Virus record (IMG/VR): IMGVR_UViG_3300011158_000001
Coordinates: 1 to 38,866 of that record
Reading direction: 5' to 3' (one strand)
Source of the DNA: a virus
Length of the DNA stretch: 38,866 bases
Shown here in pieces: positions 6,359 through 35,486 of the stretch (its first letter is position 1; each line of letters begins with the position of its first letter). Both the position numbers and the translations under genes were made by a program. The notes below the pieces were generated by a model. That model was not told the origin of the DNA. It was given only the letters and a program-made list of their open reading frames with translations, and did no database searches.

Positions 6359-7027
6359 ATGATCGTTCTCATCGGCAATACGAAAGGCGGTACCGGCAAG
6401 AGCACCACTTCCGTTCAGCTCGCAGTCGCACGAGCTAACCAAGGCAAGAATGTTTGGCTGGTCGATGGAGATCCGCAGAACAGTTCCGGCCAGGCTATTA
6501 CGCTTCGTTTGATGGATGGAGTAAAACCAGCCGTCGCTGCATCCCATTACCCGAAAGGCGATGACTTCTACGTCCAGGTTGAGCATCAATCCAAACTTTA
6601 TGATGACGTAATCCTGGACTGTGGTGGTTTCGATAGCGAGTCGTTGCGTTCCGCCTTGGCCTTGGCCGATGTACTAGTGGTCCCGTTCCAACCTCGCGCC
6701 TTCGACACTTGGGCACTTAGCAAAATGGCTTCTCTTATAGATGAAGCACAACGCGCACGTTCGCGAGCCAAGATTCAACCCCTCCGTGTGCATGCCATGC
6801 TTTCTATGGCTGATCCTGGTGTGAATGCCTCTGACAACCTTGAAGCTGAAAGGGTACTCGAGCATTACCCGCAACTTCCTTTCTTGGATGCATCGCTCGG
6901 CGATCGAAAGGCATTTGCTGTTGCATCAAGCCGCGGGCTTAGCGTCGATGAACTTGAGCGTAAGGATCAGAAAGCCAGCTTCGAGCTCAAGCGCCTGGTG
7001 CGTCATATCTTTGGAGATGTTGAATGA
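6359..7027 (+). CDS. parA: ParA partition ATPase (small, type Ib)
   Basis: Deviant Walker A motif GNTKGGTGKST at the N-terminus. 222 aa with no N-terminal HTH. Confidence 0.9.
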   Translation: MIVLIGNTKGGTGKSTTSVQLAVARANQGKNVWLVDGDPQNSSGQAITLRLMDGVKPAVAASHYPKGDDFYVQVEHQSKLYDDVILDCGGFDSESLRSALALADVLVVPFQPRAFDTWALSKMASLIDEAQRARSRAKIQPLRVHAMLSMADPGVNASDNLEAERVLEHYPQLPFLDASLGDRKAFAVASSRGLSVDELERKDQKASFELKRLVRHIFGDVE

Positions 7028-7928: not shown

Positions 7929-8660
7929 ATGACGGACCTGATGATCGACGAGGCCGACCACTGGGTAGTAAAGGGCAACGCTCTGTTAGAGGCGGCATAC
8001 AAGATGACGCTCCAGGAGAAGCGCTTGCTTTTGCTGGCCATCTCCAAAATCGACTCTCGTAAGCCAATCCCTGAGCCGATTCGTATCTATGCGCATGAGT
8101 TTGCCCAGGCATACAACCTGCCGGGAAAATGGGCCTATGAGGCTATCAAGGAAGCAACAGAAAGCCTGTACCACTGCACGATCAAGATCCCAGAAGTAGC
8201 AAACAGCCCCGAGGACGAATACCGCTGGATTTGGCGTAAGAGCACGACCAAATATGATGGCTTCGTTGAGCTGTACTTCACGCCAGTGGTTGCACCCTAC
8301 CTATCTGAACTGACAGGCGATTTCACGCGCTACAAGCTGATGCGTGTGGCTAACCTAACCTCAGTCCATAGCGTGCGGCTATTCGAGATGTTCATGCGCT
8401 ATGAGGTCGAGGGTTTCGGCTACTGGATCGTCAAGCTGGACGATTTCCGCGAGCGCCTTGGCCTGGGCAAAGCGTACGAGCGTATGAGCAATCTACGGAC
8501 GCGCGTGCTGGATCCGGTAAAGAACGAGCTACCCGAGAAGGCCAATATGGTGATGGACTATGAAATCATCAAAAAGGGCAGGGTACCCGACCGGTTGAAG
8601 TTTACGTTTTACTCAACGACAGACGCTGAAGCGCTGCCCATATCATCCGATCGAGGATAG
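7929..8660 (+). CDS. Iteron-binding replication initiator (Rep_3 family)
   Basis: VVKGNALLEAAYKMTLQEKRLLLLAISKID is the Rep_3 N-terminal signature. 243 aa, with iterons directly upstream. Confidence 0.9.
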   Translation: MTDLMIDEADHWVVKGNALLEAAYKMTLQEKRLLLLAISKIDSRKPIPEPIRIYAHEFAQAYNLPGKWAYEAIKEATESLYHCTIKIPEVANSPEDEYRWIWRKSTTKYDGFVELYFTPVVAPYLSELTGDFTRYKLMRVANLTSVHSVRLFEMFMRYEVEGFGYWIVKLDDFRERLGLGKAYERMSNLRTRVLDPVKNELPEKANMVMDYEIIKKGRVPDRLKFTFYSTTDAEALPISSDRG

Positions 8661-9356: not shown

Positions 9357-11153
9357 ATGGATATCGACGAGGATTTCAAGGATTTATTTGGCCCGGGTTT
9401 CAAGAGCCTCGATGGGTTCTGCCAGCTATTAGAAGTTGATAGAGACAAACTACTCAACTTCCTTTACAACAGGAAAGGCAGCCATTACGTTAGCTTTCTC
9501 ATCTTAAAGAAAAACAAAACCCATCGCTGCATTAAAGCACCCATACGGGTAATGAAGAAAATTCAGCATGCGCTTTTGCCGCATCTCGAAAAATTCTATT
9601 CCCCCAAGCCTTCCAGTCATGGCTTCGTCAAGGGAAGGAACGTCAAGACAAATGCTCAAATCCATTCCGGAAAGAGATATGTGTTCAACATTGATCTGAA
9701 GGATTTTTTCGAAAGCATCCATTTTGGGCGAGTCAGAAATTTATTCATGGCCCCCCCATTTAGTGCACCCTACAATGTTGCGACTGTTATGGCGCATATT
9801 TGTTGCAGCGACGGAAAATTAGCTCAAGGCTCCCCAACCTCACCGCTAATATCGAACATGATTTGCCGGAAGCTAGACTCACAAATTCAGGCCCTAGCAA
9901 AATCAAGTAAATGTCATTTTACACGGTACGCTGACGACATTACGTTTTCCTTTACCTGTACTGAAAAATACTTACCGAAAGATATTGTCGAAGTCTCCGA
10001 GGACGGCAGAGCGATACCTGGGTGCGTACTGGAGGAGATCATCAAATCCAATGGTTTCATCATAAACTCCGAAAAAACGCGTCTTCAGCACCGGACGCAG
10101 CGCCAGATGGTAACGGGCCTGGTCGTCAATGAGATGCCAAACGTAACCAGAGAATTCATCCGTTTAACGAGTTCGATGATCAACGCTCTTAAACGCTACG
10201 GGCCTGAGCTGGCAGAAGCCAAGTATTTGGAAATTCTGAAGAGCGAGAATCAGCCGCTTCAGCCTCGACAAACTCTGCGGGCGAAGGGGAATTCTGGCGA
10301 TTTTTTTATCAAGGTGGTCAAAGGGCGACTGAATTATATTCAAATGATTCGCGGTCGAGGTGACAAGATCTATCGTCGCTTGGCATATGAATTCACAGTA
10401 GCTATAGGCAAAGAGAATCTTGAGTTCAAAAAATCACCTGAAGAGATCTTAGGAAACTCAATTTTTGTCGTTAACAACATCATTGAGGAATCTCAGGGGA
10501 CGGCCTTCCTTCTGGATGGGGTCGGCATCGTTACCAATGAACACGTTGTGACGGGGGTATCTAAAACGATCGCTCGTCACTCCATTTCATTCAAGCGTGC
10601 CGGCGATACGAGAGAGTACTCAGCAGAGCTTATCCTTTCGGACAAAAAAGCAGACTTGGCTATTTTTCATCCCAATGAAGAGTTCCGAAACATACCCGCC
10701 CTGCGCAAGTCCGACAAAACGATTATTCGCCCCACGGATCCAGTTCTATCGATCGGTTTCCCTAAGCATCGAGACGGTACCGCGCACTACATCGCAAAAG
10801 GCCATACTACTCAGCGACGCCGCCAGGTCGACCTAGATCTGTGGTTGGTTGATTTCACGCTGATGGAGGGAAATAGTGGTGGTCCTATGTTCAACGACTC
10901 CATGGAAGTGATCGGTATCACAGCTAGAGGAGCAAGAAATAATATCGATGCAGCGCTTTACGGCTTTATACCACTAGAAAGCTTGAACAGTTTTATAAAC
11001 AGAGCGGACTTTCTACTTCTGAAAAGGTTGTACGACTATCTAGGCAACGGATCACTAAGCCTCCTCCCTAGAGTTCTTGGCAAGGGGCTTTTTAGCAGTA
11101 CCTACCAAATAAAGCTCCATAAGGAACGCCTTCAGCAAGCTAAGGCAGTTTAA
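9357..11153 (+). CDS. Retron-type reverse transcriptase fused to a C-terminal trypsin-like (S1) serine protease
   Basis: RT motifs NAQIH (NAxxH, 9651..9665), YADD (9927..9938) and VTG (10110..10118). Protease triad contexts TNEHVV, DLAIF and GNSGGPMF (Ser codon 10875..10877). 598 aa, with lower GC than the backbone. Confidence 0.9.
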   Translation: MDIDEDFKDLFGPGFKSLDGFCQLLEVDRDKLLNFLYNRKGSHYVSFLILKKNKTHRCIKAPIRVMKKIQHALLPHLEKFYSPKPSSHGFVKGRNVKTNAQIHSGKRYVFNIDLKDFFESIHFGRVRNLFMAPPFSAPYNVATVMAHICCSDGKLAQGSPTSPLISNMICRKLDSQIQALAKSSKCHFTRYADDITFSFTCTEKYLPKDIVEVSEDGRAIPGCVLEEIIKSNGFIINSEKTRLQHRTQRQMVTGLVVNEMPNVTREFIRLTSSMINALKRYGPELAEAKYLEILKSENQPLQPRQTLRAKGNSGDFFIKVVKGRLNYIQMIRGRGDKIYRRLAYEFTVAIGKENLEFKKSPEEILGNSIFVVNNIIEESQGTAFLLDGVGIVTNEHVVTGVSKTIARHSISFKRAGDTREYSAELILSDKKADLAIFHPNEEFRNIPALRKSDKTIIRPTDPVLSIGFPKHRDGTAHYIAKGHTTQRRRQVDLDLWLVDFTLMEGNSGGPMFNDSMEVIGITARGARNNIDAALYGFIPLESLNSFINRADFLLLKRLYDYLGNGSLSLLPRVLGKGLFSSTYQIKLHKERLQQAKAV

Positions 11154-11529: not shown

Positions 11530-12180
11530 CTACAAAATAGAAAGCTGGTCATCCGACTGCATTAGCGCAGCCGTCTCTCGTTTGAACCGGGACACTGTAC
11601 TGGTCGAGCAGCCGAGTAGATCCGCCGTCTTACGAACAGAGAAGCCTTTAGCCAAACATTCCTGAATCCTGCGCCGTTGCTCTTGGTCGGTTTGCCGACC
11701 CCGGTACAAGCCTGTGCTTTTGGCTTTTTCGATGCCTTGTATTTGCCGCTCGCGCCGTATGTCGTAGTCCTTGCGCGCAAATGCGGCCATGAATTCCAGA
11801 AACATCTGGCTGATCGCTTTAAGCATCCACTCTTGAATGCTGTCTTCGCCCGTAGGTTTGAGTACAGCATGTGTGATGGGCAGATCGAGCGCGACGACCT
11901 GAAGACCTGCCGCTGCGATCTGGTTACGCAACTGCTCCCAGGCCGATCTGGGGAGGCGGGTCAGACGGTCGACTGATTCGACTAGGAGCACATCGCCAGG
12001 TGAAGCGTCAGCAAGTAGCCGCAGCAGCTCGGAGCGGTCCACTGTCGTGCCCGAGGCATTCTCAATATAGAAGGCAGCGATACGGACACTTTGATCGGCT
12101 GCGAAGGATTGAAGCGTCTTTCGAGCCCGGTTGGCGTCCTGGTCGTCAGTGCTGGCTCGAAGGTAGGCGCGAATGAACAT
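11530..12180 (-). CDS. Small serine recombinase (resolvase/invertase family)
   Basis: N-terminal MFIRAYLRASTDDQ (catalytic Ser context), ..VESVDRLTR.., and a C-terminal HTH (SVRKTADLLGCSTSTVSR). 216 aa. Confidence 0.9.
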   Translation of the reverse strand: MFIRAYLRASTDDQDANRARKTLQSFAADQSVRIAAFYIENASGTTVDRSELLRLLADASPGDVLLVESVDRLTRLPRSAWEQLRNQIAAAGLQVVALDLPITHAVLKPTGEDSIQEWMLKAISQMFLEFMAAFARKDYDIRRERQIQGIEKAKSTGLYRGRQTDQEQRRRIQECLAKGFSVRKTADLLGCSTSTVSRFKRETAALMQSDDQLSIL

Positions 12181-13766: not shown

Positions 13767-15206
13767 TTATGGTTGTGTAGCTAATTGTTGGTAACCAATT
13801 AGATTGGCAGGGTTGATAGTTTCAAATTTCCATTTTGGTAAGGATTGTCTGTCTTTTTTATATTCATCCATTAATTTGTCTAGATCTGATGGTTTACTTA
13901 TACCAAGAATTACTTTTGATTTTTCAAAATATGACTTGGATGAAGATCTTGCAAAAACTTCAAAAGCGCTATTGAATCTATCTAAATATAGTAGAGTTTC
14001 TGGAAACCATCGTGAATAAATATCCGTTTGTTTGATTTCGGAACGCATGAATAGAATGAAGTCAGCTTGCATTAAATGCTTAAAATCAATTCCTGACTGT
14101 GCATTCCTTTCTTTGAGTAAGGCTGCACGTAAAGATAGTTTGTTAAGCTTAAGTCTTCTGTTTCTATGATCAAGAACCCCTAGGTGTTCACTGAACGTCT
14201 CGTAGCTAGTCATAAGCTCTTTGTTATAATTTGACTTGCTTGGTGAGTAATACTGCTGTGTTAGAAATTTGTTTAATAGGTCAAACTTTTCATTTTTTGT
14301 GAAGATAGCTACAAGGTATAAGAATAATTCATGAATTATAAATTTAAAATTATCGAAGTCACATTCTTCCCAATAGTTCATGCTTTGGGGTCTATACATA
14401 TAAGGTATTAGTCGCTCGAAAAATCTGTGTAGTTTGAGAATGTTTTCCTCCGTGGGGCTGTATTGTGCTATTGCGATAAAAAGGGAAATAGCTTCGTTTC
14501 TATAAGGAATGAAATCTTCTATATTACTTATTACTAGATCATCAAATTCTTTTTCTGAGTCTTTTATTACTCTAAAGTTTTCGATGTTTTCACTGAACAG
14601 TGTTAAGTATTCATCTAGTGATCCAGATGCAGAAGGCTTATTTTCTTTAATAGCTGATATTGTTCGTTTAAAACTAGCTGTTGTACCAAGAGATACGCTT
14701 TCTGCTTCATCCAAAAAGGATGGTCTTTTGCCAATGTCAGGCCTTTTATGTAAAGGCTTGTTATAAATCCATCTTAATAGTTTTTCAAAGTTTTCTGAAT
14801 ATTTGTCTGATTCGCTTAAATCAATGTATATCCTAGAGTTAAAATAAGTTGGAAGAAAAGCTTTTCCTTGGTTGTCTTTTTCAGTAATTATCGCTACAAA
14901 TTTATCCTGATCTTGTCCTTCGTATATTCTTCTTGAGATTATTTGAGTCTCTGTTCCTACACCGCCAAGACGTCCATCTGCTTTGGCTGCGTATATTTCA
15001 TCACAAATTAAAGCTACTTTTTTAATGTCTGGATCAGTAACCATTTTTTCCATAAAAGCTATAGCGTCATGGCCTTCTTTTAAATCCCATTTGTCAAGAA
15101 TAACGTGCACGCCAGACTCAGATAAGTCGTTGGCTAGATCTATTACCCACTGTTCATGTGATGGGTTTGACCAGCTATATGATATAAATAGTTTTGGATT
15201 TTCCAT
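13767..15206 (-). CDS. TIR-superfamily (SEFIR-like) domain protein with a C-terminal domain of about 330 aa of unknown function
   Basis: Start set at ATG 15206 (MENPKLFISYSWSNPSHEQWVIDLANDL..GVHVILDKWDLKEGHD...GGVGTETQII...KFVAIITEKD). About 30% GC by eye, against about 60% for the backbone. Confidence 0.8.
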   Translation of the reverse strand: MENPKLFISYSWSNPSHEQWVIDLANDLSESGVHVILDKWDLKEGHDAIAFMEKMVTDPDIKKVALICDEIYAAKADGRLGGVGTETQIISRRIYEGQDQDKFVAIITEKDNQGKAFLPTYFNSRIYIDLSESDKYSENFEKLLRWIYNKPLHKRPDIGKRPSFLDEAESVSLGTTASFKRTISAIKENKPSASGSLDEYLTLFSENIENFRVIKDSEKEFDDLVISNIEDFIPYRNEAISLFIAIAQYSPTEENILKLHRFFERLIPYMYRPQSMNYWEECDFDNFKFIIHELFLYLVAIFTKNEKFDLLNKFLTQQYYSPSKSNYNKELMTSYETFSEHLGVLDHRNRRLKLNKLSLRAALLKERNAQSGIDFKHLMQADFILFMRSEIKQTDIYSRWFPETLLYLDRFNSAFEVFARSSSKSYFEKSKVILGISKPSDLDKLMDEYKKDRQSLPKWKFETINPANLIGYQQLATQP

Positions 15207-15255
15207 AGATTTCACTTTTATAAAGGTATGTATAATAAATAAAATAATCCGCATT

Positions 15256-15283: not shown

Positions 15284-15706
15284 TTAAGCTGCTTCTACAA
15301 CTACACGGATTCTTTTTCCCAATAGTTCTAAAGCATGTTCGACAGACTCTATTTTTGAATTATGTAGAAAGTCTACTAAACGATCTACCTGCGGCAAGTT
15401 AACGCCTAGTTTGCGGGCTAAGTCTGCTTTGCCCACACCTTGCTCGACCATTGCATTCCATAATGCAATTTTGGCTACTGTTAAAGCCGGTAGCCGAACA
15501 ATATGCTGTCCTTTTTTAGGTTTAGATGCCGCTGGAATTGCTCTTCGTTGAGATACGTAAATTGATAAAGCCGACTCTAGTCCATCTACTGCTTCGAGTA
15601 AGGCTTCAGCCTCATCATCGCCTGCGCTATGCAGCTCTGGTATATCAGGGCTGCTTACCCAGACGCATCCATCTTCGACATGTACGTCTACTGGATACTC
15701 GTTCAT
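15284..15706 (-). CDS. hicB: HicB antitoxin
   Basis: MNEYPVDVHVEDGCVWVSSPDIPELHSAGDDEAEALLEAVDGLESAL plus a C-terminal HTH (KADLARKLGVNLPQVDRL) parallels E. coli HicB. Confidence 0.9.
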   Translation of the reverse strand: MNEYPVDVHVEDGCVWVSSPDIPELHSAGDDEAEALLEAVDGLESALSIYVSQRRAIPAASKPKKGQHIVRLPALTVAKIALWNAMVEQGVGKADLARKLGVNLPQVDRLVDFLHNSKIESVEHALELLGKRIRVVVEAA

Positions 15707-19793: not shown

Positions 19794-19814
19794 TTGTAAA
19801 CGGCCGATCTACAA
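19794..19814. promoter_or_regulatory. Late-promoter dyad TTGTA-N11-TACAA in the P/O divergent intergenic region
   Basis: ttgtaaacggccgatctacaa. The same dyad occurs at 26897..26917 and 33661..33681. Confidence 0.5.
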
Positions 19815-26151: not shown

Positions 26152-26180
26152 CCGGAGCCATGAAAAGCTTGGCTCCGGCT
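26150..26180 (-). terminator. Terminator hairpin for the leftward moron transcript
   Basis: 10-bp stem agccggagcc / ggctccggct. On the minus strand it is followed by TTTTTT (complement of 26142..26147). Confidence 0.55.
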
Positions 26181-26188
26181 TAGCTTGG

Positions 26189-26314
26189 CTAGCGGTCTTT
26201 CTTGTGGGAGTTGGTGTAAGGACTCTTGTCCTTTCTCACATATTCTGTAGGAGGTGGGGGAGGAGGTGGTGTTTTGCTTCCGTTGGTATGCGGTCTTTTC
26301 TCATCGTTGCTCAT
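26189..26314 (-). CDS. Candidate 41-aa polyproline micro-protein, translationally coupled to the 3-TM gene
   Basis: The ATG overlaps the upstream TGA (ATGA at 26311..26314). Translates as MSNDEKRPHTNGSKTPPPPPPPTEYVRKDKSPYTNSHKKDR*. Below the ORF-track cut-off and found by hand. Confidence 0.3.
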   Translation of the reverse strand: MSNDEKRPHTNGSKTPPPPPPPTEYVRKDKSPYTNSHKKDR

Positions 26315-26853
26315 TTAACTATCTCCATTATTATGGTGATCACTGCGCACATCGCTAAAAAAACAGCACTAATAGAAAGTTCGCTGTAGCAATTATCAAT
26401 ATACTCAGCTTTTCTTTTATTTACCTCTGACAGCTCCTTAATTGTATTTACGTGCCAATAAATTAACTCGTCTCTTAATTTTTTACTATGTGAAAGCTTC
26501 TCAAACTCTCTTTTGGATTTGTTTCTTTTATCCTCGTAAAAGCAGATAAAATCAGCAGCATCCTGCCCACGTGGCAATACAGGACAGTCGCCTATTTTTA
26601 AAGCGAGAAGTGCATGCCACCAAGAAAAAGACGAAAACAAAATAGAGAAGATGAATATGGCTAATTTTGCCCAAGTCCAGGGTAGATGAGGCTCTAGATG
26701 AAAAAGAGCGCCACTTTTAAAACCTGCAGTAGTTCCTAAGGCACCTATGATTATCGAGAGAAAGGTAAGTAGCTTTGCAGCTTTGTTCTCGAGATGATTA
26801 AAGGTGTCAATCTCATCCTTATAGCGGTCCTTAAAATAATCCAAGGCATTCAT
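26311..26853 (-). CDS. 3-TM membrane protein encoded by an AT-rich moron inserted antisense between gpS and gpV
   Basis: 180 aa. Hydrophobic segments LLTFLSIIIGALGTTAGF, WAKLAIFIFSILFSSFSWWHALLAL and ISAVFLAMCAVITIIMEIV. Oriented opposite to the late operons. Confidence 0.65.
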   Translation of the reverse strand: MNALDYFKDRYKDEIDTFNHLENKAAKLLTFLSIIIGALGTTAGFKSGALFHLEPHLPWTWAKLAIFIFSILFSSFSWWHALLALKIGDCPVLPRGQDAADFICFYEDKRNKSKREFEKLSHSKKLRDELIYWHVNTIKELSEVNKRKAEYIDNCYSELSISAVFLAMCAVITIIMEIVK

Positions 26854-26896
26854 CTAACACCTTTTTCCCTTTGCTAACCTCAAAGGCTATCTCACC

Positions 26897-26917
26897 TTGT
26901 AAACTAACTTTTTACAA
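26897..26917. promoter_or_regulatory. Late-promoter dyad TTGTA-N11-TACAA upstream of gpV
   Basis: ttgtaaactaactttttacaa, 47 nt before the V start codon. Confidence 0.5.
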
Positions 26918-28778: not shown

Positions 28779-29383
28779 GCCTGCTGCCACCCAACTCCAC
28801 CCGGCTTGAGCGACTTGCTGCGGAGGCCTTGGCCCAGATCAAGCACGTGCCTATTCCGCTGCGTGACCTGGTGGATCCGGACCGCTGCCCGCTGGAGCTG
28901 TTGCCCTATCTCGCCTGGGCGCGTTCGGTGGATCGTTGGGACAGCGCCTGGTCAGAAAAGACCAAGCGCGACGTCATCAAGGCCTCGTATTTCGTCCACT
29001 CGCACAAAGGCACCATCGGTGCGATCCGCCGCGTGGTTGAGCCGCTGGGCTACCTGATTCGCGTCCGCGAGTGGTGGCAGGAGTCACCCGAGGCAACGCC
29101 CGGCACCTTCAAACTGGATATCGGCGTGCTGGACAGCGGCATCACTGAGGAGATGTATGACGGCCTGGGCCTCTTGATCGATGACGCCAAGCCCCTCAGC
29201 CGCCACCTGACCGGCCTGGCCGTCAGCCTTGAAACCCGCGGCACGCCTTATATCGGTGTGAGCACCTACCAGGGCGAGACGCTCACCGTTTACGCCTATC
29301 AACCCGAAGCCATTGTGGTCGGCGGCAGCTACTCGGCCGGCGGCATCTCTCACGACATCGACACCCTGAGCATCTACCCATGA
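28775..29383 (+). CDS. I: Baseplate protein gpI
   Basis: MSLLPPNSTRLERLAAEAL...LLPYLAWARSVDRW is the P2 gpI pattern. Confidence 0.9.
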   Translation: MSLLPPNSTRLERLAAEALAQIKHVPIPLRDLVDPDRCPLELLPYLAWARSVDRWDSAWSEKTKRDVIKASYFVHSHKGTIGAIRRVVEPLGYLIRVREWWQESPEATPGTFKLDIGVLDSGITEEMYDGLGLLIDDAKPLSRHLTGLAVSLETRGTPYIGVSTYQGETLTVYAYQPEAIVVGGSYSAGGISHDIDTLSIYP

Positions 29384-30699
29384 GTCAGACCTATTACGCC
29401 ATTCTCACCGCTATCGGCGAGGCCAAGCTGGCCAACGCCGCAGCGCTTAACACCACCCTCAAGATCAGCAAGATGGCCGTAGGCGACGGCGGCGGTAGCG
29501 TGCCTACTCCTGACCGCAGCCAGACTGCGCTCAAGGGCGAATGGTATCGCGCAGGGCTTAACAGCCTGACCGTGGACAAGGCCAACAGCAGTCAGGTCAT
29601 CGCCGAGCTGGTGATCCCCGAAACCACCGGCGGCAGCTGGATCCGCGAGATGGGCCTGATCGATGCGGACGGCAACCTGATTGCGGTGGCCAATACCCCG
29701 CCCAGCTACAAGCCACAGCTGGCCGAAGGCTCCGGCCGCACCCAGGTCCTGCGCATGGTCCTGATTGTCAGCAGCACTTCAAGCGTCGAACTCAAGATCG
29801 ACCCGAGCGTTGTACTGGCCACGCGCGGCTATGTAGACGATGCGATCACCGTGGCGATCAACCGGCTGGACAACAAGCAGTCGGTCCGTGCGGCTACGAC
29901 CGTCAACATCACCCTGAGCGGCCTGCAGACAATCGATGGCATTGCCCTGGTGGCCGGTGACCGCGTCCTGGTCAAGAACCAGACCACGGCCAACGGGAAC
30001 GGGATCTATGTGGCCGGCAGCGGCGGCTGGCTTCGCGCGGCCGATGCAGACGAAAACGCTGAGGTCACACCGGGACTGACCGTTTATGTCGAGCAAGGCA
30101 CAACGCAGGCCGACACGATCTGGAAGCTGACTACCGATGCGCCTATTACCCTGGGTAGCACGGCCTTGAGCTTTGCGGACATTACAACGGGCTATCTGGC
30201 CGTCAGTTCAGCCGCAACGCAGGAAGAAGCCGAGGATGGCACCGCAACGACGCGCTGGATGTCCCCGCTTCGTGTCTTTCAGGCGATTGCAAAAAAGATT
30301 GTTCAAGCCACCGAGGCCTTGGCCGGTATTGCCAGGGTAGCGACTCAGGCGCAAACCAATGCTGGCACTGATGACGCCACTATTGTGACGCCTAAGAAGC
30401 TGCGTGCTGGCTTTTCCATCAGCCTTAAGGATTCTGCAAGCTACATCGTGTTTCCGTCCTGGCTGGGTGGCTGGATCATTCAATGGGGCTGGGTCAATAG
30501 CAGCTCGACCGCGCCTTACTATCAGCTCACCTATCCGCTCGCGTTTCCCACGCTCTGTACGTGTTTTCTGCTCTCCCCCTGGAACGCGCAAACCACCGGC
30601 GCGATTTACACCCACTCAGGCCGTACCAGCCAGCCCAATATTTTCCGAGGCAGTAGCACAGTGAGCTATTCCTTTGACTGGTTTGCCATTGGCTATTAA
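29380..30699 (+). CDS. H: Tail fibre protein gpH
   Basis: The conserved N-terminus MSQTYYAILTAIGEAKLANAAA...MAVGDGGG...IREMGLIDADGNLIAV is P2 H-like. The C-terminal receptor-binding part is divergent. Confidence 0.85.
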   Translation: MSQTYYAILTAIGEAKLANAAALNTTLKISKMAVGDGGGSVPTPDRSQTALKGEWYRAGLNSLTVDKANSSQVIAELVIPETTGGSWIREMGLIDADGNLIAVANTPPSYKPQLAEGSGRTQVLRMVLIVSSTSSVELKIDPSVVLATRGYVDDAITVAINRLDNKQSVRAATTVNITLSGLQTIDGIALVAGDRVLVKNQTTANGNGIYVAGSGGWLRAADADENAEVTPGLTVYVEQGTTQADTIWKLTTDAPITLGSTALSFADITTGYLAVSSAATQEEAEDGTATTRWMSPLRVFQAIAKKIVQATEALAGIARVATQAQTNAGTDDATIVTPKKLRAGFSISLKDSASYIVFPSWLGGWIIQWGWVNSSSTAPYYQLTYPLAFPTLCTCFLLSPWNAQTTGAIYTHSGRTSQPNIFRGSSTVSYSFDWFAIGY

Positions 30700-30710
30700 G
30701 GAGTTATGCC

Positions 30711-31292
30711 GTGTCCAAGTTGTACAGTCCTTCTGATGCTGCCTTTTTCGATAGCAGCGTTCACAGCGTCATTCCCAAGGATGCCATCCAGATCAGCGAT
30801 GCGCTCTATGAAACCCTACTCAAGGGCCGCTCCGTTGGGCAGGTCATTGTCCTGGACAGCCGTAGGATGCCTACGCTGTCCGATCCGGCTCCGGCGTCAA
30901 TGGATGAGGTGAAAGCGGCAAAGCTCAACGAGCTGGAGACCGCTTGCGTAACTCAAATCACTGCCGGCTTCTCTTCAAGCGCCCTGGGTGAGACTTACAC
31001 TTACCCGGCCAAGCCGACCGACCAGTCCAACCTGCAGGCCTCGGTACTGGCCTCGATCCTGCCCGGCGTCGATGAGACGTGGACCACCCCGTTCTGGTGT
31101 GCAGACACGCAGGGCAAATGGGCCTATCAAGCGCATACCGCCGCGCAGATTCAGCAGGTCGGTGTGGACGGCAAGAACGCGATCAATGCGGCCATTGCGC
31201 AAAAGATCGAGCTGGAACAGCAGGTGGAAGCAGCCAAGACCGCAGCCGAAGTGGCCGCTATCGTCTGGCCTCAAGATGAGGTAGCGGCATGA
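30711..31292 (+). CDS. Tail fibre accessory/assembly protein (DUF4376-like rather than classical gpG)
   Basis: Lies immediately after H. The central ..KAAKLNELETACVTQITAGF..YTYPAKPTDQSNL.. resembles DUF4376-type fibre-associated proteins (from memory). Confidence 0.5.
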   Translation: MSKLYSPSDAAFFDSSVHSVIPKDAIQISDALYETLLKGRSVGQVIVLDSRRMPTLSDPAPASMDEVKAAKLNELETACVTQITAGFSSSALGETYTYPAKPTDQSNLQASVLASILPGVDETWTTPFWCADTQGKWAYQAHTAAQIQQVGVDGKNAINAAIAQKIELEQQVEAAKTAAEVAAIVWPQDEVAA

Positions 31293-31729
31293 TCCAGTTG
31301 GCCCTCTACAAGGCACCCGGTGATCTTTACGACCGGCTGATCCGAATCTGGACGCGCAGCCCCTACTCGCACTGCGAACTGATCCTGGAGGATGGCCGCT
31401 TTGCCAGCAGCTCACCGCGTGACGGTGGTGTGCGGGCCAAACTGATCGAGCCAGATCCGGCGGTTTGGGACTTCCTGCCGCTGCCCTGGGTAAGGGAAGA
31501 GATGGTCGAGGAGCTGCTGCAGGCCGAACACGGCTCAGGCTATGACTGGATCGGGATCCTGGGCAGCCAAATCTTGCCGGTCGGCATCCAGAGCCAGTCG
31601 CGCTGGTTTTGCTCGGAGTTCTGCGCTCAGGCGATTGGGCTGGAACAGCCGCAGCGGTATTCGCCAGGAAGCCTATTCGAAACTATGTCCTGGGCACTCA
31701 AATTAGACTTTAATAGTGTAGGTAGCTAA
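31289..31729 (+). CDS. Hypothetical protein, possible permuted NlpC/P60-LRAT-like His...Cys signature
   Basis: ATGA-coupled to the previous gene, with backbone GC. YSHCELI ... WFCSEFCA weakly recalls the H...NCEHF arrangement. Confidence 0.4.
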   Translation: MIQLALYKAPGDLYDRLIRIWTRSPYSHCELILEDGRFASSSPRDGGVRAKLIEPDPAVWDFLPLPWVREEMVEELLQAEHGSGYDWIGILGSQILPVGIQSQSRWFCSEFCAQAIGLEQPQRYSPGSLFETMSWALKLDFNSVGS

Positions 31730-31738
31730 CGATTAGGG

Positions 31739-31945
31739 ATGCAGGTTGATATGCCGGGTCAGGAAAAACACGGTCAGACCAAGCAAGCGTTCTGGCTTGG
31801 GTGTGTAGCTCTAGGAGCCGCATCACTTCCACTCTGGTACATAATCGCGATGCAGGACAGCCAACACGAATACAAAGATATCGGGGTGTATTGCTCCATG
31901 ATCCCGTTTGTTCTGGTCACGCTGTTTAGCGTGGTCCGACGTTGA
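31739..31945 (+). CDS. Small 2-TM membrane protein
   Basis: 68 aa. Hydrophobic segments FWLGCVALGAASLPLWYIIA and VYCSMIPFVLVTLFSVV. Confidence 0.4.
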   Translation: MQVDMPGQEKHGQTKQAFWLGCVALGAASLPLWYIIAMQDSQHEYKDIGVYCSMIPFVLVTLFSVVRR

Positions 31946-32187
31946 AAGTTTTAGGTGTTTTGCCTGCTAAACGGCTGATAGGTTTCGGTAGTGCATAGCA
32001 TTCATCCAGTCATCTGGCTGAACACTTCCGCTGGGCAGTTACCAGAGAAAATTGCTAGATAGGTCACATTTCACTTTTGTATCCTGCTCGCCTCGGCATT
32101 AACGGAATAAAGCCTGTGCGAGCCCTTCCTCACAAAATCAAAACCTTTCAAAAAGAGTTCAGCCTTTTGCCAGGCTATGCTTTTTCT

Positions 32188-33087
32188 ATGCGCATATTCT
32201 GGCTGGTTGCACTGCTTGCCGCGCTGATTATTGGTTCATTGATCTTTAATGCGATCAACACCATTGTTTTCAAATCCCATACCTATTCTCATCTGCCCTA
32301 TATCTCGTTGGGCTTTGAGTTTTTTGTTCTGATACCTAGTTTTTTGCAGGTCATATGCGAGATCGACCAGCAACGCTGCCGGCGGTTATATCCGCAGGTG
32401 AGGCCAACTGGCTTTCGTGCTGCGGTGACAATGATCAACCGAGCAAAATACGAGCGAATCGAAGCTCTGTTCGGCCCTCAGGAAAGCTTGGAGAAACTGG
32501 CTAAAGGCCTGATTGAAGAATGGAAGTGGCGACGCGAAATCCAGCTTAATGCTGGAGAAACAGACGTCCAAAAGGCCCGAAAATTCTTCCGCTTGCCGTC
32601 AGGTAGCAACCTTGCCACTTACCTCGCCGGGGTCTTGGCTATCGTGGCCGGTATTGTGGTGGCACTGATAGATAAGGATAGCTTCTATCAAGAGCTTCCC
32701 AATTTATGGGGTAGCTTTGAATTTTGGTACATCGCTCTCTTTAAATTAATCGTCATGCCTATAGCGATTTGTATCATCCCGCTCGCAGTTATCTGGAGCA
32801 GCATAAAAGCGATAGGCCGGATTCTCGCTGAGAGCATGGATGATGATTTTCTCAGCCAACCTAAATTCTACTCGTTCATCAAAGAGCTCCTGGAACTGGC
32901 TGATCGCAAAGAACGAAGGCTACTGCTTAAAACAACAGGCCGAGCCTATTGGTCGATTCGCCTTCTGACTGCTCCAATTCATAAAGTCCCTAGAATTTAC
33001 AGAAATGTCCATCGCTCGAAGCGGCTGGCCAAGCTGAGAAAGGCAGGTTTGAAAAATCAGTTTATCAAAACCCAGGTGAGGCATTAA
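32188..33087 (+). CDS. 4-TM membrane protein (accessory cassette at the Z/fun position)
   Basis: Start reset from TTG 32077 to ATG 32188 (MRIFWLVALL..). There are four hydrophobic segments, a soluble loop of about 90 aa and a basic C-terminus. AT-rich. Confidence 0.6.
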   Translation: MRIFWLVALLAALIIGSLIFNAINTIVFKSHTYSHLPYISLGFEFFVLIPSFLQVICEIDQQRCRRLYPQVRPTGFRAAVTMINRAKYERIEALFGPQESLEKLAKGLIEEWKWRREIQLNAGETDVQKARKFFRLPSGSNLATYLAGVLAIVAGIVVALIDKDSFYQELPNLWGSFEFWYIALFKLIVMPIAICIIPLAVIWSSIKAIGRILAESMDDDFLSQPKFYSFIKELLELADRKERRLLLKTTGRAYWSIRLLTAPIHKVPRIYRNVHRSKRLAKLRKAGLKNQFIKTQVRH

Positions 33088-33090
33088 TGC

Positions 33091-33618
33091 ATGGATCAGC
33101 CAAGTATAGTGATACAAAGTTTGCCAGCCATAACAGGTCTTATTGGTGCATGTGTTGGCTTCGCAGGCTCTTTTCTTAATACGTTGTACAACCAAAAACA
33201 GACCCATAAACAGAGTCATAATCAACGCAAACGAGAAAGAATCGAGTCGCTATACAGGCTTATAGAAGTTACAAGATATGAAATACAAAGGGATCAAAAA
33301 AATACAATGCTTGCCGCGAATGGACACCATAGCGAGATAGAGCACTCGGCTACAATAGAGGGGAAGCTTCCAGCCTTCATAGAGATTGAGATGTTGATCG
33401 ATCTCTACCTCCCGATCCTTAAAGAAGGATATCAAAACTTCGACAAGGCTCGATCTGAATTTAAAGCCATTTGTTCTCGGCTAGCAGATGAGCCAATGCA
33501 AAGCAAAAGCGCTGAAGAGCAACTAGCAGACGTTAATGAGTTGCGGTGGTACTTTGAAAATGTACAAGGCGAGCTTTATAAACTTCAGGCGATGCTGCCT
33601 GAGTTGATCGAGTCTTAA
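33091..33618 (+). CDS. Single-TM helical protein, operonic with the 4-TM protein
   Basis: Starts 4 nt after the previous stop. N-terminal TM segment LPAITGLIGACVGFAGSFL, followed by charged helical sequence. Confidence 0.6.
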   Translation: MDQPSIVIQSLPAITGLIGACVGFAGSFLNTLYNQKQTHKQSHNQRKRERIESLYRLIEVTRYEIQRDQKNTMLAANGHHSEIEHSATIEGKLPAFIEIEMLIDLYLPILKEGYQNFDKARSEFKAICSRLADEPMQSKSAEEQLADVNELRWYFENVQGELYKLQAMLPELIES

Positions 33619-33660
33619 TCTTATAAATCAACCGGCGCCCGATCCATCCTCTACCTAATC

Positions 33661-33681
33661 TTGTAAATCCTCTCCTTACAA
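33661..33681. promoter_or_regulatory. Late-promoter dyad TTGTA-N11-TACAA upstream of FI
   Basis: ttgtaaatcctctccttacaa, 75 nt before the FI start codon. Confidence 0.5.
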
Positions 33682-33708
33682 CCCGCGCCTGATGAACCCG
33701 GCGCGGGT
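33681..33708 (+). terminator. GC-rich hairpin between the accessory cassette and FI
   Basis: acccgcgcc / ggcgcgggt 9-bp stem followed by ttt. It lies between the dyad and the expected FI transcription start. Confidence 0.4.
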
Positions 33709-33755: not shown

Positions 33756-34922
33756 ATGGCCGACTACTTACACGGCGTCCGTGTCCAAGAAATCAACGAG
33801 GGCACGCGCTTCATCTCCACTGTTTCAACCGCAATTGTCGGAATGGTCTGCACCGCAGACGATGCCGATGCTGCTGCTTTTCCCCTGAATACTCCTGTCC
33901 TAGTCACCAATGTCCAGACCGCCGCCGGCAAGGCTGGCACCAAGGGCACCATGGCCGAGGCTCTACAGGCCATCGCCGACCAGTCCAAGCCCGTCACCGT
34001 CCTGGTCCGCGTCCCCGAAGGCGCAACCGAAGCCGAGACCGTCTCCAACATCATCGGCGGATCCGCGAACGGCAAGTACACCGGCATGAAAGCCCTGCTG
34101 TCTGCCAAAGCTCAACTGGGCATTACGCCACGCATTCTGGGCGTACCCGGTCTGGATACCCAGGCTGTCACCGCTGCCATGGTCAGCATTGCCCAGAAGC
34201 TGCGCGCCTTTGTCTACGCGAGCGCCTGGAATTGCGAAACCATGGAAGAAGCGGTGGCCTACCGTAACCAGTTCGGTGCGCGAGAGCTGATGCTGCTCTG
34301 GCCTGACTTCCTGGCCTGGAGCACCTCGGCTAACGCCACTACTACTGCAAACGCCACAGCCCGCGCCCTGGGCCTGCGTGCGCAACTGGACAAGGAGGTT
34401 GGCTGGCACAAGACTCTGTCCAACGCCCCGGTCAACGGCGTCACCGGAATCAGCAAGGATGTGTTCTTCGACCTGCAGGATCCCTCGACCGATAGCAACT
34501 ACCTCAACAGCCACGAGGTCACCACGCTGATCAACCAGAGCGGCTATCGCTTCTGGGGTTCGCGCACCACCACAGACGACTCGCTGTTCGCCTTCGAGAA
34601 CTACACCCGCACCGCCCAGGTGCTCATGGACACCATGGCCGAGGCGCATTTCACCTTTGTCGACAAGCCCCTGCACCCGAGCCTGGCCCGCGACATCATC
34701 GAGGGTATCAACGCCAAGCTGCGCGACCTGACCGCCCAGGGCTACCTGCTCGGCGGCGAGTGCTGGTACGACGAAGAGGTAAATACCAAGGACACCCTCA
34801 AGGCTGGCCAGCTGCGTCTGGACTACGACTACACCCCAGTCCCGCCCCTGGAAGACCTAACCCTGCGGCAGCGCATCACCGACTCGTACCTGACGAGTTT
34901 TGCCGACCGCGTGAATTCCTAA
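33756..34922 (+). CDS. FI: Tail sheath protein FI
   Basis: MADYLHGVRVQEINEGTRFISTVSTAIVGMVCTADDADA..FPLN.PVL.TNVQ is near-colinear with remembered P2 FI. Start reset from 33720 to 33756. Confidence 0.95.
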   Translation: MADYLHGVRVQEINEGTRFISTVSTAIVGMVCTADDADAAAFPLNTPVLVTNVQTAAGKAGTKGTMAEALQAIADQSKPVTVLVRVPEGATEAETVSNIIGGSANGKYTGMKALLSAKAQLGITPRILGVPGLDTQAVTAAMVSIAQKLRAFVYASAWNCETMEEAVAYRNQFGARELMLLWPDFLAWSTSANATTTANATARALGLRAQLDKEVGWHKTLSNAPVNGVTGISKDVFFDLQDPSTDSNYLNSHEVTTLINQSGYRFWGSRTTTDDSLFAFENYTRTAQVLMDTMAEAHFTFVDKPLHPSLARDIIEGINAKLRDLTAQGYLLGGECWYDEEVNTKDTLKAGQLRLDYDYTPVPPLEDLTLRQRITDSYLTSFADRVNS

Positions 34923-34970: not shown

Positions 34971-35486
34971 ATGGCCCTGCCCCGCAAACTGAAAAACATG
35001 AACCTCTTTAACGAGGGCTACAACTACCTCGGCGAAGCCAAGAGCGTCACCCTGCCCTCGCTTGGCCGCAAGATGGAAAGCTACCGAGGCGGCGGCATGA
35101 ACGGCCCCGTCAAGGTCGACTTTGGCATGAGCGACGATGGCATCCAGCTTGAGTGGACACTGGGTGGCCTGGACGTCACCGTGCTCAAGCAGTTCGGCAT
35201 GACCAATGCCAGCGGTGTGATGCTTCGCTTTGCCGGCTCCTATCAGCAGGACGATACCGCTACCGACACGTCCGTTGATATCGTGGTTCGCGGCCGTCAC
35301 GAAACCATCGAGATGGGCGACGCGGCCCCAGGTGAAGACACCGAGCACAAGATCACCACCACCTGCACCTACTACAAGCTCACCGTCGACGGTGAGGTCG
35401 TGATCGAGATCGATCTACTCAATTTCATCGAGAAGGTTGGCGGCGTTGATCGTCTTGAAGGCCAGCGCAAAGCGCTGGGCATGTAA
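34971..35486 (+). CDS. FII: Tail tube protein FII
   Basis: MALPRKLKNMNLFNEGYNYLGE..., 171 aa, P2 FII-like. Confidence 0.95.
   Translation: MALPRKLKNMNLFNEGYNYLGEAKSVTLPSLGRKMESYRGGGMNGPVKVDFGMSDDGIQLEWTLGGLDVTVLKQFGMTNASGVMLRFAGSYQQDDTATDTSVDIVVRGRHETIEMGDAAPGEDTEHKITTTCTYYKLTVDGEVVIEIDLLNFIEKVGGVDRLEGQRKALGM

What the first reader, a model, noticed from the sequence alone, without database searches (positions are those of the whole stretch)
31730..33660. AT-rich membrane-protein cassette at the P2 Z/fun cargo position
Between the fibre genes and FI, where P2 carries the Z/fun exclusion gene, GC drops visibly. The locus is reported as a defence hotspot in P2-like phages.

Three ORFs appear here: a 68-aa 2-TM protein, a 299-aa 4-TM protein with a soluble loop of about 90 aa and a basic tail (32188..33087), and, 4 nt downstream, a 175-aa single-TM helical protein (33091..33618). 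A 240-nt ORF-free leader (31946..32187) precedes the pair, and a GC hairpin (33681..33708) follows it.

I recognise no enzymatic motif. A two-component membrane module at this locus is a good candidate for an uncharacterised exclusion or abortive-infection system.
Basis: partly seen in the sequence, partly recalled or inferred. Interest (0 to 1): 0.66.

Follow-up and report, generated by a model that had tools for sequence, protein, structure and literature searches.

The report
Stacked membrane-protein cargo in phage hotspot
The low-GC stretch between the tail-fibre and tail-sheath genes of this P2-like Pseudomonas phage is real accessory cargo, but it is not a two-gene system: a rare, uncharacterised four-helix membrane protein that travels alone between phage hotspots and bacterial defence islands was inserted between two resident small membrane-protein genes.

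Summary
GC falls from about 0.60 to 0.42-0.47, and three same-strand membrane-protein ORFs lie between the fibre module and the sheath gene FI of a P2-like Pseudomonas phage.

Corrections:
- ORF2 most likely starts at GTG 32116 (323 aa), not ATG 32188.
- The hairpin at 33681-33708 belongs to the conserved FI late-promoter region, directly after a TTGT-N13-ACAA box at 33661-33681.

The two-component reading fails its own refutation test. ORF3 has only two other alleles in 5.8 billion proteins. Both sit in sister phages in the order p146-ORF1-ORF3-FI, without ORF2.

ORF2 belongs to a small orphan family, 29 clusters in 1.84 billion. It occurs without ORF3 in at least four deep clades of P2-like fibre-sheath slots, often as the only cargo. 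It also lies next to Shango, CBASS Cap2/Cap3, Gabija and PDC-S36-like genes.

The 4-nt ORF2-ORF3 gap is a recombination scar. Both genes are under purifying selection (dN/dS about 0.1-0.2).

ORF2 gives a confident all-alpha model (pLDDT 86). It has no match in PDB, BFVD, Pfam or PADLOC.

Best reading: ORF2 is a stand-alone candidate anti-phage membrane protein stacked on a separate ORF1/ORF3 cargo. The function is inferred from gene neighbourhood only.

The parts
31289..31729 (+). 146-aa backbone gene (p146) after the fibre-assembly gene. It is the left border of the variable slot and is not cargo.
   Evidence: It is 89-95% identical in all sister phages whatever their cargo. It matches phrog_1128 at 9e-49. 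Homologues at about 40% identity occur in 25 phage records from other genera, including Moraxella, Ralstonia and Haemophilus. GC3 is 0.72.
31739..31945 (+). ORF1, a small 2-TM protein. It is 68 aa from the ATG at 31739, or more likely 64 aa from the ATG at 31751. It is part of the resident cargo.
   Evidence: TM segments at 20-38 and 48-66. It is 84-91% identical in L001-L007, where it is followed after 99 nt by the ORF3 homologue. dN/dS is 0.3-0.5. No match among deposited phages.
31946..32115 (+). Non-coding leader of ORF2. The part 32013-32115 moves together with ORF2.
   Evidence: Homology to ORF2-less relatives ends at 31959. Homology to ORF2-carrying relatives starts at 32013. No Rfam family and no sigma-70 consensus were found.
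32116..33087 (+). ORF2, a 323-aa 4-TM all-alpha inner-membrane protein of an orphan family. It is the inserted, self-contained cargo gene.
   Evidence: The start is set by homologue conservation. Predicted topology is N-in/C-in, with TM segments at 27-45, 63-83, 167-185 and 208-236. dN/dS is 0.12-0.17. The family has 29 clusters among 1.84e9 representatives. The AF2 model has pLDDT 85.7. There are no hits in PDB, BFVD, Pfam, PADLOC or NCBIfam.
33041..33090 (+). Recombination junction. The native ORF2 C-terminus is replaced and the frame runs into the resident spacer upstream of ORF3, which carries ORF3's own Shine-Dalgarno sequence GGTGAGG at 33075-33081.
   Evidence: Identity to ORF2-carrying relatives stops at 33041. 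The ORF2 tails differ between window, L015 and L016. The window sequence aligns with the L002/L007 spacer immediately upstream of ORF3.
33091..33618 (+). ORF3, a 175-aa protein with one N-terminal TM segment and a 146-aa helical domain predicted to be cytoplasmic. It is a divergent allele of the resident cargo gene.
   Evidence: Only two other alleles exist (P0008 54% identical, P0009 51%), always in the order p146-ORF1-ORF3-FI. dN/dS is about 0.2, with dS saturated at 1.6-1.9 against 0.2-0.4 in the flanks. There is a weak full-length match to phrog_36918, of unknown function, at 2e-4.
33661..33681 (+). TTGT-N13-ACAA dyad, the presumed binding site for an Ogr-type late activator at the FI promoter. 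It is the right border of the slot.
   Evidence: Three such boxes occur in the window (19794, 26897, 33661) against 0.31 expected. Each lies upstream of a late operon. The box is conserved in relatives with other cargo, including distant ones (L019, L032). Assigning it to Ogr-type activation rests on my knowledge of P2 late promoters.
33681..33708 (+). GC-rich hairpin followed by TTT. It is a backbone element inside the FI promoter region and may terminate read-through from upstream.
   Evidence: Fold. Conservation across cargo types. It was not scored as a terminator by the consensus scan, because the T-run is short.
33756..34922 (+). Tail sheath gene FI (backbone).
   Evidence: Pfam Phage_sheath_1, Phage_sheath_1C and Gp18_domIII_N. 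It is 92-98% identical in sister phages.

Best explanation
The locus is a stack of two unrelated cargo units in the Z/fun-equivalent hotspot of a P2-like Pseudomonas phage. The hotspot lies between the fibre module and the FI late promoter.

Unit A is resident: ORF1 (2-TM, 64-68 aa) and ORF3 (1-TM, 175 aa). It is found only in this phage lineage.

Unit B is ORF2 with about 100 nt of its own leader. It recombined in between ORF1 and ORF3, lost its native last ~13 codons, and so came to end 4 nt before ORF3. This much is shown.

ORF2 is a self-sufficient single-gene module. It is a 323-aa inner-membrane protein with two helical hairpins in the membrane. Almost all of its soluble mass lies on the predicted cytoplasmic side: a basic 83-aa loop and a basic 87-aa tail.

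Inferred: ORF2 is expressed from the prophage through its own leader and protects the lysogen against other phages. The most likely mode is an abortive-infection-type membrane protein. In that model the cytoplasmic helical bundle senses an infection cue and the 4-TM part oligomerises to collapse membrane integrity. Exclusion of incoming DNA at the inner membrane is the next most likely mode.

ORF1 and ORF3 are probably a separate membrane-acting cargo of the same general purpose.
For: Shown:
- Cargo status and slot borders.
- ORF3 and ORF1 occur without ORF2 in L001-L007 and L018.
- ORF2 occurs without ORF3 in the same slot of sister phages, with other companions: two receiver-only regulators in L015, L017 and L010, and a reverse-strand 191-aa ORF in L016.
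- ORF2 is the only or last gene before the sheath gene in other P2-like phages: L019 (41% identical), L032 (44%) and L013/L014.
- ORF2 homologues lie next to Shango SngABC (L008, L009), after CBASS Cap2/Cap3 (L011), before GajA/GajB (L030), and before a PDC-S36/PD-T4-1-like NOV_C protein (L024, L034).
- The clades are only 33-46% identical to each other, so these are separate associations.
- The junction is a recombination scar.
- Purifying selection acts on ORF2 and ORF3.
- ORF2 keeps intergenic gaps of 96-364 nt to its neighbours and carries its own leader.
- Topology follows the positive-inside rule.
- The most conserved motifs lie just before TM3 and just after TM4, on the predicted cytoplasmic side: EWxW, FFxLP, SNxATY, DDDYLS and FYxFIxEL.
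- The same phage carries known defence genes elsewhere: retron RT-Protease_XI and bSEFIR.
Against: - No functional evidence of any kind exists. Neighbourhood association is weak for single genes, and several contexts come from short contigs.
- No promoter consensus was found in the leader.
- No similarity to any known defence or exclusion protein was found, so the mechanism is pure inference.
- ORF2 sits directly upstream of the sheath gene in four deep clades. That could instead reflect a phage-specific role.
- L029 and L031 lie next to genes with no link to defence: an aldo-keto reductase and an AraC regulator in L029, and an inovirus Rep protein in L031.
- In P. asuensis one assembly shows ORF2 frameshifted (L010), although another assembly has it intact (L012).
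Confidence: 0.5

Rival explanations
1. One reading: ORF2 and ORF3 form one two-component membrane system, either sensor plus effector or toxin plus partner, translated as a coupled pair.
For: The genes are on the same strand with a 4-nt gap. ORF3's Shine-Dalgarno sequence lies inside the end of ORF2. Both are membrane proteins with cytoplasmic helical parts. Recombination at P2/P4 hotspots is reported to create functional chimeric systems (PMC13586616 abstract), so a new partnership in this one phage cannot be excluded.
Against: The pair is seen nowhere else. ORF3 alleles lack ORF2. Every ORF2 homologue locus tested lacks ORF3. ORF2 is the sole cargo in L019 and L032. The tight spacing is explained by a recombination junction that truncated the native ORF2 tail.
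Confidence: 0.08
2. ORF2 is a superinfection-exclusion protein in the manner of T4 Imm, P22 SieA or HK97 gp15. It would sit in the inner membrane of the lysogen and block genome entry of incoming phages, rather than killing the infected cell.
For: It is a prophage-borne inner-membrane protein inside the tail-gene region, with its own leader. It recurs in the fibre-sheath slot of several P2-like lineages. This placement resembles known exclusion morons, which I recall from established knowledge and did not test here.
Against: The predicted periplasmic loops are very short, 17 and 22 aa, and the conserved motifs are on the predicted cytoplasmic side. Homologues also lie in non-phage islands beside intracellular defence systems. 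No similarity to any phage protein in INPHARED was found.
Confidence: 0.2
3. ORF2, and possibly ORF1 and ORF3, serve the phage or the lysogen in a way unrelated to anti-phage defence. Examples would be modulation of lysis timing, envelope or transport modification (lysogenic conversion), or help with tail or fibre function.
For: ORF2 lies directly upstream of the sheath gene in at least four clades that are only 41-44% identical to the window's clade. This looks like long-term linkage to P2-like tails. All three proteins are membrane proteins without enzymatic motifs. The neighbourhoods of L029 and L031 are not defence-like.
Against: Presence is patchy among near-identical phages. L001-L007 lack ORF2 and are otherwise 91-97% identical in their flanks, so ORF2 is not needed for virion production. 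Its GC3 is foreign. It lies beside Shango, CBASS, Gabija and PDC-S36-like genes outside phages. The lysis genes lie elsewhere in these phages.
Confidence: 0.17
4. The ORFs are decaying or non-functional remnants in a recombination-prone spacer.
For: The locus is mosaic. The ORF2 C-terminus was replaced. A relative shows frameshifts in ORF2 and the neighbouring regulator genes (L010).
Against: dN/dS is 0.12-0.24 for ORF2 and ORF3. Reading frames are intact across homologues of 33-93% identity. The AF2 model built from the family alignment is confident (pLDDT 85.7).
Confidence: 0.05

Closest known systems
P2 Z/fun locus (Fun(Z), T5 exclusion) and the P2-like fibre-FI accessory hotspot
   Same: The position is the same: after the fibre-assembly gene and before the FI late promoter of a P2-like phage. 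The cargo is variable and low in GC. The hotspot is described in PMC13586616 and bioRxiv 10.1101/2024.10.15.618418.
   Different: No sequence similarity between ORF1, ORF2 or ORF3 and any deposited phage was found by tblastn against INPHARED, a collection that should include P2. The host here is Pseudomonas, and the slot holds two stacked units.
Lambda RexB (4-TM membrane component of the RexAB abortive-infection system)
   Same: Both are prophage-encoded inner-membrane proteins with four TM helices that are candidates for membrane depolarisation. This resemblance is from my own knowledge and was not tested here beyond sequence.
   Different: To my knowledge RexB is much smaller and needs RexA. 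ORF2 has about 170 aa of cytoplasmic helical domains, occurs alone, and shows no sequence or structural match.
TM effectors of signalling defence systems (CBASS/Pycsar S-4TM, SLATT, PycTM, Cap15-type)
   Same: Both are multi-TM alpha-helical proteins in defence islands. One ORF2 homologue lies 364 nt downstream of CBASS Cap2/Cap3.
   Different: No HMM match was found. PycTM reached E = 0.014 in one of 26 members, and no SLATT or S_4TM Pfam hit appeared. No nucleotide-binding domain is recognisable. ORF2 usually has no cyclase nearby and has its own leader.
Superinfection-exclusion morons (HK97 gp15, T4 Imm, P22 SieA)
   Same: Both are small or medium inner-membrane proteins carried by phages, some inside tail operons and expressed from the prophage. 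This is from my own knowledge.
   Different: No similarity was found. ORF2 also lives in non-phage islands. Its conserved parts are on the predicted cytoplasmic side.
PADLOC candidate systems (PDC-*) and other orphan defence-island genes
   Same: ORF2 is an uncharacterised family whose only functional lead is its neighbourhood: Shango, Gabija, CBASS and PDC-S36-like genes.
   Different: ORF2 is not in PADLOC-DB v2. No member reaches significance against any PDC model; the best is E = 0.0023 in one member.

Membership tests
   ORF3 alleles in L001-L007 and L018 lack ORF2. tblastn found no ORF3 in the 18 ORF2 loci it covered (L010, L012-L017, L019, L022, L024, L028-L035). The gene calls of L008, L009 and L011 show no partner either.
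   Homology to other ORF2 modules ends at 33041. The native ORF2 C-terminus is replaced and the frame reads into the resident spacer upstream of ORF3.
P2 Fun(Z) exclusion protein | Sequence homology to P2 Z/fun | tested here: not met
   tblastn of ORF1, ORF2 and ORF3 against 50,697 phage records gave no match at E <= 0.01.
P2-like Z/fun-type cargo hotspot | Located between the fibre or fibre-assembly genes and the FI late promoter, with content that varies among close relatives | tested here: met
   Flanks identified by Pfam. The late-promoter box lies at 33661-33681. At least four cargo configurations occur among phages with 92-98% identical FI.
Moron (autonomous promoter-gene-terminator unit in a late operon) | Own regulatory region moves with the gene; foreign base composition | tested here: met
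   About 100 nt of leader (32013-32115) is co-transferred with ORF2. GC3 is 0.525 against 0.70-0.78 in the flanks.
Moron (autonomous promoter-gene-terminator unit in a late operon) | Recognisable promoter and terminator | tested here: inconclusive
   No sigma-70 consensus was found in the leader, and no terminator directly after ORF2. The only strong hairpin, 33681-33708, belongs to the backbone. The scan covers only sigma-70-type sites.
Defence-island-associated gene family | Homologues from separate clades lie beside known defence systems | tested here: met
   Shango SngA/B/C at 3e-111 to 4e-291 (L008). The same three-gene arrangement follows the homologue in L009 by Pfam domains. CBASS E1-E2 and JAB (L011). 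GajA and GajB (L030). PDC-S36/PD-T4-1-like protein (L024, L034). The clades are 33-46% identical to each other. No statistical enrichment test was done.
CBASS/Pycsar/Thoeris-type TM effector (S-4TM, SLATT, PycTM) | HMM match to an effector TM family | tested here: not met
   Pfam and PADLOC scans of 26 family members gave no consistent hit.
CBASS/Pycsar/Thoeris-type TM effector (S-4TM, SLATT, PycTM) | Encoded in an operon with a signal-producing enzyme | tested here: inconclusive
   Only L011 is near CBASS genes. There the gap is 364 nt and the contig is cut upstream of Cap2. Most family members have no such neighbour.
RexAB-like abortive infection | Homology to RexB and presence of a RexA-like partner | tested here: not met
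   No phage hit and no structural analogue. No conserved partner gene appears across the contexts.
Any structurally characterised fold | Significant Foldseek or profile match to a solved or predicted viral structure | tested here: not met
   Model pLDDT is 85.7 and pTM 0.72. Best PDB match has E = 1.3 with TM <= 0.18. Best BFVD match has E = 0.6. Best PDB sequence-profile match has E = 0.023 and looks spurious. AlphaFold DB was not available.

The most novel reading that the evidence does not exclude
ORF2 founds a new single-gene family of membrane-embedded anti-phage proteins with a fold not represented in PDB or BFVD. Its cytoplasmic helical bundle would sense infection and its two TM hairpins would execute membrane collapse or block genome entry. 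It would be a module that shuttles between the tail-gene hotspot of P2-like phages and chromosomal defence islands. In this phage it may also have been newly wired to ORF3 by recombination.
Probability: 0.3. Interest if true: 0.6.

Novelty: new member of a known kind. Interest (0 to 1): 0.42.

Why it matters
If ORF2 is shown to protect against phages, it would add a compact (about 1 kb) single-gene membrane defence or exclusion family. It has no detectable relatives among known systems and a confidently predicted but unmatched fold.

It would also extend the P2 Z/fun hotspot concept, so far worked out mostly in enterobacterial P2-like phages, to Pseudomonas P2-like phages.

The locus is a clean example of hotspot cargo being stacked by recombination. 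Tight gene spacing there can mimic an operon. That is a caution for neighbourhood-based prediction of multi-gene systems.

Tried and rejected
- Pfam, PHROGs, PADLOC and NCBIfam on the three ORFs, and on 26 ORF2 family members: nothing significant. The one exception is a weak ORF3 match to phrog_36918, of unknown function.
- tblastn against deposited phages (ORF1, ORF2, ORF3) and plasmids (ORF2 only): no match.
- Rfam and the promoter/terminator scan of the leaders: nothing.
- Repeat search for flanking att-like or transposon-like repeats around ORF2: only chance-level short repeats.
- First AF2 run with 6 sequences: too poor to use (pLDDT 60). The second run with 26 sequences was good, but Foldseek against PDB and BFVD found no analogue.
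- PDB sequence-profile searches for ORF2 and ORF3: nothing credible.
- Tested whether the 175-aa and 209-aa ORFs upstream of the Shango-linked homologues (L008, L009) are hidden ORF3 relatives: they are not.
- An alignment of 26 sequences was too divergent for the metagenome scan. A 13-sequence subset worked.
- Rejected the idea that ORF3's low identity reflects fast diversifying selection. dS is saturated while dN/dS is about 0.2, so this is an old allele brought in by exchange.
Full report
**1. What is in the sequence**

The window is a P2-like phage genome with a late-gene backbone of about 60-65% GC. Around the finding, Pfam identifies these genes:
- a tail fibre (29380-30699; Phage_tail_fib 5e-59);
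- a DUF4376 fibre-assembly-like gene (30711-31292);
- a 146-aa gene, here called p146 (31289-31729; phrog_1128);
- the sheath gene FI (33756-34922);
- the tube gene FII (34971-35486).

The closest deposited phages are phiCTX-type Pseudomonas phages and Ralstonia P2-like phages. They match only in FI and FII, at about 72% DNA identity.

Between p146 and FI the GC content falls:

| Element | GC | GC3 |
|---|---|---|
| ORF1 | 0.517 | 0.58 |
| Leader | 0.453 | - |
| ORF2 | 0.469 | 0.525 |
| ORF3 | 0.424 | 0.415 |
| Flanking genes | 0.59-0.61 | 0.70-0.78 |

Hydropathy supports 2, 4 and 1 TM segments respectively.

**2. Corrections to the anatomy**

ORF2 homologues of 35-52% identity share a conserved 24-residue N-terminal extension, MRxxxHKxKxYxxxFxxxPxY. 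In the window these residues are encoded upstream of the ATG at 32188. They begin at GTG 32116.

In the aligned homologues outside the window's own clade, this position is an ATG in 10 loci and a GTG in 3. Several have a good Shine-Dalgarno sequence. ORF2 is therefore 32116-33087, 323 aa, and the leader is about 170 nt.

By the positive-inside rule ORF2 is N-in/C-in:
- TM segments at 27-45, 63-83, 167-185 and 208-236;
- a basic 83-aa cytoplasmic loop;
- two short periplasmic loops of 17 and 22 aa;
- a basic 87-aa cytoplasmic tail;
- net charge +23.

ORF3 has one TM segment (about residues 6-29), followed by 146 aa predicted to be cytoplasmic.

The right border of the slot is a dyad, TTGTAAATCCTCTCCTTACAA, at 33661-33681. 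The pattern TTGT-N13-ACAA occurs three times in the window against 0.31 expected. The three sites lie:
- at 19794, before the capsid genes that start at 19905;
- at 26897, before the baseplate gene V;
- at 33661, before FI.

This is the arrangement of P2 late promoters with their Ogr-type activator sites. That assignment comes from my knowledge of P2, not from a test here.

The dyad and the GC hairpin at 33681-33708 are conserved in relatives that carry other cargo. They are backbone, not part of the cassette.

**3. The two genes are not a pair**

ORF3 has only two other alleles among 5.8 billion clustered proteins: P0008 (54% identical) and P0009 (51%). Both sit in sister phages in the order p146, ORF1, a 99-nt gap, ORF3, FI. 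ORF2 is absent from these loci (L001-L007 and L018).

ORF2 homologues were collected from five searches:
- the protein collection;
- an exhaustive profile search, which found 29 clusters among 1.84 billion representatives;
- GTDB species genomes, where only three species have one, all Pseudomonas;
- IMG/VR;
- JGI metagenomes.

No locus other than the window contains ORF3 (tblastn).

A DNA comparison explains the architecture:
- Homology to the ORF2-less phages runs up to 31959 and resumes at 33220.
- The stretch 32013-33041 is about 90% identical to the ORF2 module of other phages (L010, L012, L015-L017).
- After 33041 the ORF2 C-terminus differs from all relatives. The sequence instead aligns with the spacer that precedes ORF3 in L002 and L007.

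The 4-nt gap, and the Shine-Dalgarno sequence inside the end of ORF2, are thus products of a recombination junction. They are not an evolved coupling.

**4. Both units are real genes**

dN/dS is 0.12-0.17 for ORF2 against its 89-93% identical relatives. It is about 0.2 for ORF3 and 0.3-0.5 for ORF1, which has few substitutions.

ORF3 has saturated synonymous divergence (dS 1.6-1.9), while its flanks have dS 0.2-0.4. The window's ORF3 is therefore an old, exchanged allele. It is not a product of rapid diversification.

**5. Where ORF2 lives**

The family splits into clades that are 33-46% identical to each other.

In P2-like phages, immediately upstream of the sheath gene:
- *The window's clade.* Companions vary. 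L015 and L017 have a reverse-strand 113-124-aa ORF and two receiver-only response regulators. L016 has a reverse-strand 191-aa ORF. L010 is a decayed copy.
- *L019.* ORF2 is the sole cargo between a 91-aa gene that follows the fibre gene and FI.
- *L032.* ORF2 is the sole cargo between the fibre-assembly gene and FI.
- *L013 and L014, P. benzopyrenica*.
- *L033.* ORF2 lies next to a decayed sheath gene.
- *L030.* ORF2 follows a fibre-assembly gene and precedes GajA and GajB.

Outside recognisable phage context:
- directly upstream of Shango SngA/B/C (L008, L009);
- 364 nt downstream of CBASS Cap2/Cap3 (L011);
- upstream of a PDC-S36/PD-T4-1-like NOV_C protein, in an island that also has dynamin-like GTPases and a WYL protein (L024, L034).

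L029 and L031 have uninformative neighbours.

ORF2 keeps intergenic gaps of about 100-360 nt to its neighbours. There is no conserved partner gene.

**6. What ORF2 looks like**

With 26 family members the AF2 model is confident (pLDDT 85.7, pTM 0.72) and entirely helical. TM2 and TM4 continue as long helices into a cytoplasmic bundle. That bundle is built from the loop helices and three C-terminal helices, the last of which is very basic.

No analogue or family was found:
- Foldseek against PDB: best E = 1.3, TM <= 0.18.
- Foldseek against BFVD: best E = 0.6.
- Pfam, PADLOC, NCBIfam and PDB profile searches: nothing.

The best-conserved motifs flank TM3 and TM4 on the cytoplasmic side: EWxW, FFxLP, SNxATY, DDDYLS and FYxFIxEL. 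There is no catalytic-looking constellation of residues.

**7. Interpretation**

Shown:
- The locus is hotspot cargo.
- It is a stack of two unrelated units.
- ORF2 is an autonomous, mobile, selected gene of a very small orphan family.
- That family recurs in P2-like fibre-sheath slots and beside known defence systems.

Inferred:
- ORF2 is expressed from the prophage through its own leader and acts against other phages.
- I favour an abortive-infection-type membrane protein, with a cytoplasmic sensor bundle and a 4-TM oligomerising part. The soluble mass and the conserved motifs are cytoplasmic, and the family also occurs beside intracellular defence systems outside phages.
- Exclusion of DNA entry is the main alternative.
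- A phage life-cycle or lysogenic-conversion role cannot be excluded. The recurrent placement next to the sheath gene argues somewhat for it. The patchy presence among near-identical phages argues against a need for ORF2 in virion production.

ORF1 and ORF3 remain a lineage-restricted pair of unknown function. The only lead is a weak full-length match to phrog_36918, also of unknown function.

**8. Comparison with known systems and novelty**

The slot corresponds to P2 Z/fun, a recognised accessory and defence hotspot (PMC13586616; bioRxiv 10.1101/2024.10.15.618418). The hotspot validated experimentally in Rousset et al. (PMC9122126) is a different one, in P2-like phages of Escherichia coli.

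None of the three proteins resembles any deposited phage protein, which should include P2 Fun(Z) and lambda RexB. None matches a PADLOC model or a known TM effector family.

The kind of thing, membrane-protein cargo in a phage hotspot, is well known. The ORF2 family itself is new and uncharacterised. I rate it a new member of a known kind, of moderate interest.

**9. Verdict**

- Observation: confirmed, with a corrected ORF2 start and corrected slot borders.
- Interpretation: partly supported. Cargo at a hotspot and a plausible defence candidate are supported.
- Function: untested. The decisive experiments are listed under next steps.

Noticed in passing
window 9357-11153 (+): A reverse transcriptase fused to a trypsin-like protease. 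It matches PADLOC RT-Protease_XI, a single-gene retron-type defence, at 9e-180 (Pfam RVT_1 plus Trypsin_2). It lies in a low-GC region of the early half of the phage.
   Followed up: partly
window 13767-15254 (-): A 495-aa TIR/SEFIR protein that matches PADLOC bSEFIR at 9e-124. It lies in the lowest-GC kilobase of the window (about 0.34). A HicB-like ORF (15284-15706) and a serine resolvase (11530-12180) are nearby.
   Followed up: partly
window 6359-7027 and 7929-8660 (+): A ParA-type ATPase and a Rep3-family replication initiator. They suggest plasmid-type replication and partition genes joined to a P2-like virion module, possibly a phage-plasmid. No integrase was looked for.
   Followed up: no
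window 26152-26896 (ORF 26311-26853, - strand): A second low-GC (0.44) cargo slot lies between tail gene S and the TTGT-N13-ACAA box of the V promoter. It holds a reverse-strand 180-aa ORF with no Pfam hit. In relatives the same slot carries a Fic protein (L002:1439-2794) or a 380-aa ORF (L007:1606-2748).
   Followed up: partly
window 19794-19814, 26897-26917, 33661-33681: Three TTGT-N13-ACAA dyads occur (0.31 expected by chance), each upstream of a late operon. They are presumably Ogr-type late-activator sites. The spacer here is 13 nt, where I recall 12 for P2.
   Followed up: partly
L015 9030-9434 and 9633-10046; L017 8811-9215 and 9424-9837: In sister phages ORF2 is followed by two receiver-only response-regulator proteins of 134 and 137 aa. 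It is preceded by a reverse-strand 113-124-aa ORF with no Pfam hit. This is unusual cargo for a tail-gene hotspot.
   Followed up: no
L010 7544-9625 versus L012 8001-8927: In one Pseudomonas asuensis assembly ORF2 and both regulator genes are frameshifted. In another assembly of the species ORF2 is intact. This is either real decay or an assembly error.
   Followed up: no
window 31289-31729 (+): The 146-aa gene after the fibre-assembly gene (phrog_1128) carries a CSEFC motif. It has only a faint match to the YaeF family of permuted papain-like enzymes (E = 0.054). It is widespread at about 40% identity in phages of Moraxella, Haemophilus, Ralstonia and Salmonella.
   Followed up: partly
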